64,000 bases of DNA, from assembly GCF_030013205.1 (NCBI RefSeq), contig NZ_CP122648.1, one strand, 5' to 3'. Made by a program: the position numbers. Each line of letters opens with the position of its first letter. Positions within the stretch are counted from its first letter, which is position 1. Source of the DNA: Escherichia coli. GTDB lineage: Bacteria > Pseudomonadota > Gammaproteobacteria > Enterobacterales > Enterobacteriaceae. Positions 49,101 to 52,100 of this stretch are shown here, one piece after another.

Positions 49101-52100
49101 TGGTAACGCTGGCGGAAATGGCCTTTGCTGGTCATTGCGGCATTGACGCGGATATCGCCACTCTGGGTGACGATCGCCTGGCGGCGTTGTTTAACGAAGA
49201 ACTGGGTGCGGTGATTCAGGTTCGAGCCGCTGACCGTAAAGCAGTTGAAGCGGTACTGGCACAGCATGGGCTTGCTGATTGCGTCCACTATGTTGGCCAG
49301 GCGGTTTCCGGTGACCGTTTTGTGATTACCGCCAACGGGCAGACTGTATTCAGCGAAAGCCGCACCACATTGCGTGTCTGGTGGGCAGAAACTACCTGGC
49401 AGATGCAGCGCCTGCGTGACAACCCTGAATGTGCCGATCAGGAACATCAGGCGAAATCCAACGACGCCGATCCGGGCCTGAATGTGAAATTGTCGTTCGA
49501 TATCAACGAAGATGTGGCAGCACCGTTTATTGCCACTGGCGCGCGCCCGAAAGTTGCCGTGCTGCGTGAGCAGGGCGTGAACTCGCATGTTGAAATGGCG
49601 GCAGCTTTCCACCGTGCAGGCTTCGATGCTATCGACGTGCATATGAGCGATCTGCTGGCTGGACGCACGGGACTGGAGGATTTCCACGCCCTGGTCGCGT
49701 GCGGTGGTTTCTCCTACGGTGATGTGCTGGGTGCCGGTGAAGGTTGGGCGAAGTCTATCCTGTTCAATGACCGTGTACGCGATGAGTTTGCAACCTTCTT
49801 CCACCGTCCGCAAACGCTGGCGCTGGGGGTATGTAACGGTTGCCAGATGATGTCTAATCTGCGCGAACTGATCCCAGGTAGTGAGTTGTGGCCACGTTTT
49901 GTGCGCAATACCTCCGATCGCTTTGAAGCGCGTTTCAGCCTGGTTGAAGTGACCCAAAGCCCGTCTCTGCTGTTGCAGGGGATGGTGGGCTCGCAAATGC
50001 CGATTGCTGTGTCTCACGGTGAAGGGCGCGTGGAAGTGCGTGATGCGGCGCATCTGGCGGTACTGGAAAGCAAAGGGCTGGTGGCACTGCGCTATGTCGA
50101 TAACTTCGGCAAAGTCACTGAAACCTACCCAGCTAACCCGAACGGTTCTCCGAATGGTATTACGGCAGTCACGACTGAAAGTGGTCGAGTCACCATTATG
50201 ATGCCGCACCCGGAACGTGTTTTCCGTACTGTCAGCAACTCCTGGCATCCGGAAAACTGGGGCGAGGATGGCCCATGGATGCGCATTTTCCGCAATGCGC
50301 GTAAGCAGTTGGGGTAAGTCGTCAGCCCATTGGTTTTGCAGCCCGGATGCGGCATTCACGCCGCATCCGGCATTAAGCACCAACCGCTATTATAAGCTCC
50401 CAACTTCGGGAGCTTTTTTGTGTCTGTAAATCACGACAATGGGTGGTGTGCCGTGTCGCTTTCTGGCGACATTTAACTTATTGATTTTAATATTATCTAA
50501 TAAGTTTATCTTAAGTTGTCTCTTTTTAGCGACACAGTGGCTGATTTACAGCCAAATAGCGAAGAAGCCATAAATCCCTCAAAGCGGCGTATAATCAGTA
50601 CGTTACCAAACTATTTTCTTTATTGGCACAGTTACTGCATAATAGTAACCAGTGGCTCATTCACCGACTTATGTCAGCCCCTTCGGGACGTGCTACATAA
50701 AATTCGAATGACGCACAACAAGGTGCCTGCCGTCCAACTTCTGATATCAGCGTAGCTATATCAACCATCGGGCGAAACGTCGAGTTAGGCACCGCCTTAT
50801 TCCACAACAAAGCCGGGTAATTCCCGGCTTTGTTGTATCTGAACTTCCCCTCGGTTAGCATCAGGCTATTCGCGTCTGACGAGAGTAACACCTTGAAACG
50901 CTGGCCCGTTTTTCCCCGCTCATTACGACAACTGGTAATGCTGGCATTTTTGCTGATTCTGCTACCCCTGTTGGTGCTGGCATGGCAAGCCTGGCAAAGC
51001 CTGAATGCGCTTAGCGATCAGGCGGCGCTGGTTAACCGCACTACGCTTGTTGATGCCCGGCGCAGTGAAGCGATGACCAACGCGGCACTGGAAATGGAGC
51101 GCAGCTACCGTCAGTATTGTGTGCTGGACGACCCAACCCTGGCGAAGGTTTATCAAAGCCAGCGCAAGCGTTACAGCGAAATGCTCGATGCCCACGCAGG
51201 CGTGCTGCCGGACGATAAACTCTACCAGGCATTACGTCAGGATTTGAACAATCTGGCTCAACTTCAGTGTAACAACAGCGGTCCTGATGCCGCCGCCGCC
51301 GCACGTCTTGAAGCCTTTGCCAGTGCCAATACCGAAATGGTACAGGCCACGCGCACAGTGGTGTTCTCTCGTGGGCAGCAACTTCAGCGTGAAATCGCCG
51401 AACGTGGGCAATATTTTGGTTGGCAATCGCTGGTGTTATTTCTGGTGAGTCTGGTGATGGTGCTACTTTTCACGAGGATGATTATCGGTCCGGTGAAAAA
51501 TATCGAGCGCATGATCAACCGGCTGGGGGAAGGGCGTTCTCTGGGCAATAGTGTCTCGTTCAGTGGACCGAGCGAGTTACGCTCGGTTGGGCAACGTATT
51601 CTTTGGTTAAGTGAGCGCCTGTCATGGCTGGAATCCCAACGTCATCAATTCTTAAGACATTTATCTCATGAATTAAAAACGCCGCTGGCGAGTATGCGCG
51701 AGGGCACTGAATTACTGGCTGACCAGGTTGTCGGGCCGCTTACGCCAGAGCAAAAAGAGGTGGTGAGCATTCTTGATAGCAGCAGCCGCAATTTGCAAAA
51801 GTTGATCGAACAACTGCTTGATTACAACCGTAAACAGGCGGACGGTGCGGTGGAACTGGAGAATGTTGAGTTAGCGCCACTGGTGGAAATGGTGGTTTCT
51901 GCTCATAGCCTGCCCGCACGGGCTAAAATGATGCATACCTACGTCGATCTCAAAGCAACAGCTTGCCTGGCGGAGTCAATGCTGCTGATGAGCGTACTGG
52001 ATAATCTTTACTCCAATGCGGTGCACTACGGGGCTGAATCCGGTAACATTTGCCTTCGCAGCAGTTTACATGGCGCGCGGGTTTATATTGATGTCATCAA

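What the first reader, a model, noticed from the sequence alone, without database searches (positions are those of the whole stretch)
50454..50834. glmY with intact sigma-54 promoter and GlrR-type sites
The purL-glrK gap holds a GlmY-like sRNA with a sigma-54 -24/-12 element and two TGTC-N10-GACA sites, directly upstream of glrK-qseG-glrR. This is a known circuit; it is noted because it is easily missed by ORF-based annotation.
Basis: established knowledge. Interest (0 to 1): 0.2.

Follow-up and report, generated by a model that had tools for sequence, protein, structure and literature searches.

The report
Ordinary E. coli glmY small-RNA locus
This is the well-studied E. coli small RNA gene glmY with its known sigma-54/GlrR-controlled promoter, almost identical to the K-12 reference; it is real and intact, but nothing about it is new.

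Summary
The finding is correct and ordinary. The window is E. coli. The purL–glrK gap holds glmY at 50651–50834 (+). It is 184 nt and 182/184 identical to K-12 b4441, and it scores 147 bits against Rfam GlmY (gathering score 33). An exact sigma-54 element, TGGCAC-N5-CTGCA, lies at 50624–50639. It is identical to the sigma-54 site mapped upstream of K-12 glmY, and it overlaps the known sigma-70 −10 hexamer CATAAT.

There are three TGTC-N10-GACA sites, not two: 50421–38, 50454–71 and 50517–34. These are the only three in the 64 kb, and they match the published ABS1–3. Two exact IHF consensus sites flank ABS3.

Full-length glrK/qseE, qseG and glrR/qseF follow directly. Across about 108 other Enterobacterales loci, the GlrR half-sites, the −24/−12 elements and the IHF cores stand out as conserved islands, and the RNA helices show compensatory changes.

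The mechanism is taken from the literature. GlrR~P, IHF and sigma-54 drive glmY transcription. Processed GlmY then acts as a decoy for RapZ, which spares GlmZ and raises GlmS synthesis.

Novelty: already known. Interest: very low.

The parts
50394..50415 (+). purL intrinsic terminator hairpin followed by a T-run (context; upstream boundary of the glmY control region)
   Evidence: Terminator scan. purL CDS 46430–50317 identified.
50421..50438 (.).
   Evidence: Exact TGTC-N10-GACA. Identical in K-12. Half-sites 0.91/0.96 conserved against 0.52 for the spacer across 109 Enterobacterales upstream regions. Three ABS are reported in PMC3045617.
50454..50471 (.). GlrR/QseF binding site ABS2, TGTCGCTTTCTGGCGACA (−197 to −180)
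   Evidence: Identical in K-12. Half-sites 0.98/0.98 conserved against 0.43 for the spacer.
50474..50486 (-). IHF site 1 (distal), AATCAATAAGTTA, exact WATCARNNNNTTR
   Evidence: Mean conservation 0.80. The literature describes two IHF-like sites flanking ABS3 and found the distal one essential for the sigma-54 promoter (PMC3045617).
50517..50534 (.). GlrR/QseF binding site ABS3, TGTCTCTTTTTAGCGACA (−134 to −117)
   Evidence: Identical in K-12. Half-sites 0.87/0.95 conserved against 0.61 for the spacer.
50593..50605 (+). IHF site 2 (proximal), AATCAGTACGTTA, exact WATCARNNNNTTR
   Evidence: Mean conservation 0.64, with the core bases at 0.7–0.9.
50624..50639 (+). Sigma-54 promoter TGGCAC-N5-CTGCA (GG at −26/−25, GC at −14/−13 relative to +1 at 50651)
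   Evidence: Only exact match in the window. 50623–50639, TTGGCACAGTTACTGCA, is identical to the sigma-54 site listed upstream of glmY in the genome-wide map for E. coli (PMC4591121). −24 element 0.94 and −12 element 0.83 conserved against 0.34 for the spacer.
50638..50643 (+). −10 hexamer CATAAT of the weak overlapping sigma-70 promoter
   Evidence: Sequence read directly. CATAAT is named as the characterised −10 in PMC3045617. Identical in K-12.
50651..50834 (+). glmY primary transcript, 184 nt
   Evidence: Coordinates transferred from K-12 b4441 by alignment, 182/184 identical. MFE −64.3 kcal/mol, z = −5.9 against shuffles.
50651..50798 (+). Part corresponding to the ~148-nt processed, active GlmY. 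Stem-loop 1 is 50652–50716 and the central stem-loop 2 is 50722–50793.
   Evidence: Full-length Rfam RF00128 match. Domains from the fold. Covariation over 109 sequences. The 184→148 nt processing is reported in PMC4152352.
50806..50834 (+). glmY intrinsic terminator hairpin (12-bp stem)
   Evidence: Fold. Identical in K-12.
50856..50868 (+). Inferred qseEGF sigma-70 promoter: candidate −10 TAGCAT (50856–50861) and transcription start at A50868
   Evidence: Inference. [quoted passage not shown] This stretch is identical to K-12. The sequence was read. The promoter scan did not flag it.
50893..52320 (+). glrK/qseE sensor histidine kinase, 475 aa, TTG start
   Evidence: RefSeq annotation of an identical locus. 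98.5% identical to K-12 GlrK over its full length. Histidine-kinase family hits.
52485..53198 (+). qseG outer-membrane lipoprotein, 237 aa
   Evidence: NF007997 at 354.8 bits against a cut-off of 234. 97.5% identical to K-12.
53188..54522 (+). glrR/qseF sigma-54-dependent response regulator, 444 aa
   Evidence: NF011695 GlrR equivalog at 982.3 bits against a cut-off of 763. 99.8% identical to K-12.

Best explanation
The locus is the orthologous, intact E. coli glmY gene with its complete native control region, followed by the qseE(glrK)-qseG-qseF(glrR) operon.

Shown here:
- The RNA gene, its fold, and its identity to K-12.
- The exact sigma-54 −24/−12 element overlapped by a sigma-70 −10.
- Three TGTC-N10-GACA sites at −230, −197 and −134, and two IHF consensus sites flanking the third.
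- Intact GlrK, QseG and GlrR genes.
- Cross-species conservation of exactly these elements.

Inferred from published work on K-12, not tested here:
- Phosphorylated GlrR binds the three upstream sites. IHF bends the DNA, and GlrR activates sigma-54 RNA polymerase to start transcription at A50651. The overlapping weak sigma-70 promoter gives basal expression from the same start.
- The 184-nt transcript is trimmed at its 3' end to about 148 nt.
- This processed GlmY mimics GlmZ and sequesters the RNase E adaptor RapZ. GlmZ then escapes cleavage, pairs with the glmS leader with the help of Hfq, and raises GlmS synthesis when glucosamine-6-phosphate is low.
- GlcN6P-free RapZ in turn stimulates QseE/QseF, which closes a feedback loop.
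- qseEGF has its own weak promoter just downstream of the glmY terminator.
For: Rfam GlmY hit at 147.1 bits against a gathering score of 33, over the full model. Alignment to K-12 gives 182/184 identity across b4441. The whole stretch from −64 to the glrK start is identical apart from those two bases, and all three ABS, both IHF sites and the promoter are identical. The two substitutions fall in unpaired positions: U at 50704 lies in the internal loop of stem-loop 1, and C at 50805 lies in the 3' tail that is processed off.

The stretch is present as a single chromosomal copy (one place) in nearly all of the 5425 of 5426 complete E. coli genomes that have it; the highest count in any genome is 2. 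The fold has z = −5.9. Over 109 Enterobacterales sequences, 98.8% of cells are paired, against 27–43% when partners are slid. Six pairs carry compensatory changes, and 0/500 shuffles reach the observed covariation.

Motif counts: 3 TGTC-N10-GACA sites against 0.74 expected, all clustered; the only exact sigma-54 match in the window; exact IHF consensus on either side of ABS3. In a phylogenetic footprint on upstream DNA that was not part of the retrieval pattern, the half-sites score 0.87–0.98 and the −24/−12 elements 0.94/0.83, against a background of 0.31–0.40. ABS positions recur at −230/−197/−134 across Enterobacteriaceae. The GlrR equivalog scores 982 bits, QseG scores 355 bits, and GlrK is full length.

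Literature: PMC3045617, PMC6075780, PMC4152352, PMC7073468, PMC4591121.
Against: Nothing in the sequence argues against it. Four limits apply. No expression, binding or processing was measured for this strain. rpoN, rapZ, glmZ and glmS lie outside the window, so the rest of the circuit is assumed from the species. The generic sigma-70 scan found no promoter here, which fits the published description of a weak promoter but does not add support. Invariance of the GCTCATTCA, GAATGA and GGTGCC blocks in the cross-species alignment is forced by the pattern used to retrieve the loci, so only the other columns carry evidence.
Confidence: 0.97

Rival explanations
1. The RNA is the paralogue GlmZ, or an undifferentiated GlmY/GlmZ-clan member, rather than GlmY.
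For: GlmY and GlmZ share one Rfam clan, and a lower-scoring overlapping clan match was suppressed.
Against: GlmY is the best-scoring family in the clan. The sequence is 182/184 identical to K-12 glmY b4441. It lies between purL and glrK, the conserved glmY position. Published work says E. coli glmZ has a sigma-70-only promoter with no GlrR sites (PMC3045617).
Confidence: 0.01
2. The stretch encodes a small protein: the 79-aa ORF at 50516–50755 (+) or the 76-aa ORF at 50661–50891 (−).
For: Both ORFs appear in the mechanical ORF list.
Against: Neither has a Pfam match at E ≤ 0.1. The first ORF would start inside ABS3 and run through promoter DNA that is only about 0.3 conserved. Conservation follows RNA helices with compensatory changes, not codons. 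Neither the curated K-12 record nor the PGAP record annotates a CDS here.
Confidence: 0.01
3. The locus is present but functionally decayed in this strain, for example a silent promoter or an inactive two-component system.
For: Function was not measured. GlrK and QseG differ from K-12 at a few residues (98.5% and 97.5% identity).
Against: Every cis element is identical to K-12. The three proteins are full length with no frameshift or stop. The 601-bp stretch that contains the gap is 100% identical in another sequenced isolate and at least 99% identical in 195 genomes.
Confidence: 0.02

Closest known systems
Escherichia coli K-12 glmY (b4441; formerly tke1/sroF) with its overlapping sigma-54/sigma-70 promoter and GlrR ABS1–3
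   Same: Same position (purL–glmY–glrK), same 184-nt length, and 182/184 identical bases. The sigma-54 element, CATAAT −10, three TGTC-N10-GACA sites, two IHF sites, terminator and glmY–glrK spacer are all identical.
   Different: Two neutral-looking substitutions: 50704 U for A in an internal loop, and 50805 C for U in the processed-off tail. A few substitutions lie in non-conserved promoter spacer DNA at 50552–50588. There is an extra 18-bp REP-like arm about 50 bp upstream of ABS1, just after purL.
GlmZ (Rfam RF00083, same clan CL00011)
   Same: Homologous sRNA with the same two 5' stem-loops, both bound by RapZ (PMC4152352).
   Different: According to the literature, GlmZ carries the glmS-pairing region, lies next to hemCDXY, and in E. 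coli has a sigma-70-only promoter (PMC3045617). The window RNA scores best as GlmY and sits at the glmY locus.
glmY promoters of other Enterobacterales (Salmonella and Yersinia types)
   Same: Sigma-54 −24/−12 element at −27, three GlrR sites with the same relative spacing, and IHF-like sites. All were seen here in roughly 100 species.
   Different: Published work says the Yersinia group lacks the overlapping sigma-70 −10. The window has the Escherichia/Klebsiella/Salmonella-type CATAAT.

Membership tests
GlmY sRNA (Rfam RF00128) | Covariance-model score above the curated gathering threshold, over the full model | tested here: met
   147.1 bits against 33, model positions 1–163.
GlmY sRNA (Rfam RF00128) | Two 5' stem-loop domains plus an intrinsic terminator, with helices supported by compensatory change | tested here: met
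   MFE domains at 50652–50716, 50722–50793 and 50806–50834, z = −5.9. 98.8% of cells paired, 6 pairs with double changes, 0/500 shuffles reach the observed value, and slid controls give 27–43% paired. Caveat: helices 1 and 3 are invariant partly because the retrieval pattern fixed them.
GlmY sRNA (Rfam RF00128) | Conserved genomic position between purL and glrK-qseG-glrR | tested here: met
   The same order holds in Dickeya, E. albertii, Edwardsiella and Yersinia loci; the Erwinia locus has the downstream genes but no purL hit.
GlmY sRNA (Rfam RF00128) | Orthology to the experimentally characterised K-12 gene | tested here: met
   182/184 identical, same ends.
GlmY sRNA (Rfam RF00128) | No complementarity to the glmS leader (the feature that separates GlmY from GlmZ) | not tested
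   The glmS leader is not in the window. Inferred from near-identity to K-12 GlmY, which is reported to lack it (PMC4152352).
GlmY sRNA (Rfam RF00128) | 3' processing to ~148 nt and RapZ sequestration | not testable with these tools
   Literature only (PMC4152352, PMC7073468).
GlrR(QseF)/sigma-54-dependent promoter | −24 GG / −12 GC element with canonical spacing just upstream of the transcription start | tested here: met
   TGGCACAGTTACTGCA at 50624–50639, unique in the window. Identical to the mapped sigma-54 site for glmY. Conserved at 0.94/0.83.
GlrR(QseF)/sigma-54-dependent promoter | Three upstream activator sites TGTC-N10-GACA more than 100 bp upstream | tested here: met
   Sites at −230, −197 and −134, against 0.74 expected in the whole window. 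Half-sites conserved and spacers not.
GlrR(QseF)/sigma-54-dependent promoter | IHF sites between the activator sites and the promoter | tested here: met
   Exact WATCARNNNNTTR at 50474–86 (−) and 50593–605 (+). By count alone the consensus is not enriched in the window (6 found against 4.0 expected), so the support comes from position and conservation.
GlrR(QseF)/sigma-54-dependent promoter | Cognate enhancer-binding protein and its kinase encoded and intact | tested here: met
   GlrR equivalog NF011695 at 982 bits, GlrK 475 aa, QseG NF007997 at 355 bits.
GlrR(QseF)/sigma-54-dependent promoter | Transcription actually dependent on RpoN and GlrR~P | not testable with these tools
   rpoN lies outside the window, and there are no expression data.

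The most novel reading that the evidence does not exclude
The few strain-specific differences from K-12 might measurably change GlmY dosage or stability. These are U at 50704 in the stem-loop 1 internal loop, C at 50805 in the 3' tail near the processing site, and the complete REP palindrome inserted between the purL stop and ABS1. A change in dosage or stability would shift the set-point of GlcN6P homeostasis or of QseEF-linked virulence regulation in this lineage.
Probability: 0.03. Interest if true: 0.15.

Novelty: already known. Interest (0 to 1): 0.04.

Why it matters
It matters only as an annotation point. glmY is a functional regulator of cell-envelope precursor synthesis and, in pathogenic E. 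coli, of virulence gene expression. Yet the automated RefSeq records sampled here carry no feature for it. The check shows that the locus in this window is intact and orthodox, so no further investigation is warranted.

Tried and rejected
1. The generic sigma-70 promoter scan on 50300–50900 returned no sites. The published overlapping sigma-70 promoter and the qseEGF promoter are weak and fall below that tool's threshold. This is not evidence against them.

2. The terminator scan flagged only the purL terminator and not glmY's. In the glmY hairpin the U-run is part of the stem and is interrupted. The fold shows the hairpin clearly.

3. My first strict sigma-54 regular expression missed many species. 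The alignment-based footprint replaced it.

4. RNAalifold on the MAFFT alignment did not resolve the apical parts of stem-loops 1 and 2, because their lengths vary between genera. Only the 28 basal pairs were scored.

5. Of the 120 genome-contig loci, nine lie outside Enterobacterales (Chloroflexales, Paraburkholderia, Pedosphaera, Eubacteriales, Methylococcaceae, Bacteroidetes, Peptostreptococcaceae, Prevotellaceae, Armatimonadetes). I treated them as chance hits and excluded them.

6. I considered and rejected three alternatives: GlmZ identity, small-ORF coding, and a decayed locus (see rivals).

7. A weak naRNA4 hit at 50341–50398 (19.6 bits against a gathering score of 59.5) is just the REP element.

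Full report
**What is there.** A gathering-threshold Rfam scan of the whole window gives a full-length match to GlmY_tke1 (RF00128) at 50651–50798 on the + strand. The score is 147.1 bits against a gathering score of 33. A permissive rescan of 50300–50900 finds nothing else except a sub-threshold REP-derived hit. A 601-bp query around the gap matches 5425 of 5426 complete E. coli genomes, always on the chromosome. It is 100% identical to strain K_EC180, so the window is E. coli.

**Alignment to K-12.** Alignment to MG1655 places the curated ncRNA glmY (b4441, 184 nt) at exactly 50651–50834. Only two bases differ within the gene. U at 50704 (K-12 has A) lies in the internal loop of stem-loop 1. 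C at 50805 (K-12 has U) lies in the 3' tail between the central stem-loop and the terminator. The 184-nt RNA folds into three domains: 50652–50716, 50722–50793, and a 12-bp terminator hairpin at 50806–50834. The energy is −64.3 kcal/mol and z = −5.9 against dinucleotide shuffles.

**The control region.**
- TGGCACAGTTACTGCA at 50624–50639 is the only exact TGGCAC-N6-TGCA in the 64 kb.
- With its 5' T, this element is letter-for-letter the sigma-54 site listed upstream of K-12 glmY in the genome-wide sigma-54 map (PMC4591121).
- The −12 element overlaps CATAAT (50638–50643), the published −10 of the weak sigma-70 promoter that starts at the same nucleotide (PMC3045617).
- TGTC-N10-GACA occurs exactly three times in the window, all within 114 bp: 50421–38, 50454–71 and 50517–34. 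These are −230, −197 and −134 relative to +1. About 0.74 sites are expected by chance in the whole window.
The literature describes three sites, with ABS1 the dispensable one.
- Two exact IHF consensus matches, 50474–86 (−) and 50593–605 (+), flank ABS3 as published.
- All of these elements are identical in K-12.

**Independent comparative test.** One scan of the species-representative genome collection, using a GlmY-internal pattern, returned 120 loci. About 110 were from Enterobacterales, and the nine outside Enterobacterales were discarded as chance hits.

The upstream DNA was not part of the retrieval pattern. Even so, a 109-sequence alignment shows sharp islands of conservation exactly at the proposed elements:

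| Element | Conservation |
|---|---|
| ABS half-sites | 0.87–0.98 |
| ABS spacers | 0.43–0.61 |
| −24 element | 0.94 |
| −12 element | 0.83 |
| Spacer between −24 and −12 | 0.34 |
| IHF site 1 | 0.80 |
| IHF site 2 | 0.64 |
| Remaining promoter DNA | 0.31–0.40 |

. ABS positions recur at −230/−197/−134 throughout Enterobacteriaceae and at shifted but equally spaced positions in other families.

For the RNA, 28 basal pairs of the consensus structure are 98.8% paired, against 27–43% when partners are slid. Six pairs show compensatory double changes, for example UA↔AU in 29 sequences and CG↔AU in 37. None of 500 shuffles reaches the observed covariation. One caveat applies: helices 1 and 3 are invariant in part because the retrieval pattern fixed GCTCATTCA, GAATGA and GGTGCC.

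**Surroundings.** purL (46430–50317) ends with a REP element and an intrinsic terminator at 50394–50415. Downstream lie three full-length genes:
- glrK/qseE, 50893–52320, TTG start, 475 aa, 98.5% identical to K-12.
- qseG, 52485–53198, 237 aa, NF007997 at 355 bits.
- glrR/qseF, 53188–54522, 444 aa, GlrR equivalog at 982 bits, 99.8% identical to K-12.

These are followed by glnB. Published work places the qseEGF sigma-70 promoter immediately downstream of glmY, with a start 25 bp before the qseE start codon and essentially no read-through from glmY (PMC6075780). That corresponds to A50868, with a candidate −10 TAGCAT at 50856–61. This assignment is an inference; the stretch is identical to K-12.

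**Mechanism.** The anatomy above is shown here. The steps below are inferred from K-12 literature.
- GlrR~P binds ABS1–3. With IHF-induced bending, it activates sigma-54 RNA polymerase at the glmY promoter, and a weak overlapping sigma-70 promoter gives basal transcription (PMC3045617).
- The 184-nt transcript is processed to about 148 nt. This form mimics GlmZ and sequesters the RNase E adaptor RapZ, so full-length GlmZ survives and activates glmS translation (PMC4152352).
- GlcN6P-free RapZ stimulates QseE/QseF phosphorylation and so raises glmY transcription. GlmY binding to RapZ feeds back negatively on this (PMC7073468).
- QseG is required for QseE/QseF activity (PMC6075780).
- rpoN, rapZ, glmZ and glmS are outside the window and are assumed present because the organism is E. 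coli.

**Rivals.** GlmZ identity is excluded by orthology, synteny and clan ranking. The two mechanical ORFs overlapping the RNA (79 aa +, 76 aa −) have no Pfam match and cross unconserved promoter DNA. A decayed locus is unlikely because every cis element equals K-12 and the three proteins are full length.

**Verdict.** It is an already known system in its canonical form, and interest is very low.

Noticed in passing
window 50350-50367 (placement ambiguous by a few bases): Relative to K-12, the window carries an extra 18 bp that completes a REP-like palindrome (GCCCGGATGCGGCATTCACGCCGCATCCGGC) just downstream of purL. K-12 has only one arm. The 90–95% identity class of E. coli genomes matches over a span 18 bp shorter (583 bp instead of 601), which fits this same indel. 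It gives a weak sub-threshold naRNA4 hit (19.6 bits against 59.5).
   Followed up: partly
L056 (Edwardsiella hoshinae NBRC 105699), minus strand, about 2193-2523: purL–glmY–glrK–qseG synteny and a GlmY-like RNA are present. However, the 300 bp upstream of glmY contains no TGTC-N10-GACA even with one mismatch, and no TGGCAC-N5-TTGCA with up to three mismatches. The purL–glmY spacer is only about 171 bp. This may be a lineage in which glmY has lost GlrR/sigma-54 control. Edwardsiella is not mentioned in the main text of PMC3045617.
   Followed up: partly
L007 (Escherichia albertii NBRC 107761) about 9650-10140: The GlmY RNA is almost identical to that of E. coli, but the promoter region has diverged far more. 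Two of the activator sites have GACG half-sites and the third is further degenerate (AGTC…GACG). The −24 element reads TGGCAT, and the intervening DNA differs from that of E. coli.
   Followed up: partly
RefSeq E. coli records H1, H16-H21 (e.g. NZ_CP062203.1 1295325-1295925): PGAP-annotated complete genomes show no annotated feature under the glmY match. Only the curated K-12 record has ncRNA b4441. One of the 5426 genomes lacks a match, and one has two places.
   Followed up: partly
window 10951-16054: A complete rRNA operon: 16S at 10951–12492, a tRNA at 12578–12650, a StyR-44 hit at 12731–12839 in the spacer, 23S at 12847–15750, and 5S at 15939–16054.
   Followed up: no
window 7815-7953; 34135-34966(-); 37750-37964; 41376-41452(-): Other Rfam hits above gathering score: RyfD (125 bits), AsrC antisense to rseC (505 bits), the rncO leader (259 bits), and the ohsC antitoxin sRNA (107 bits).
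   Followed up: no
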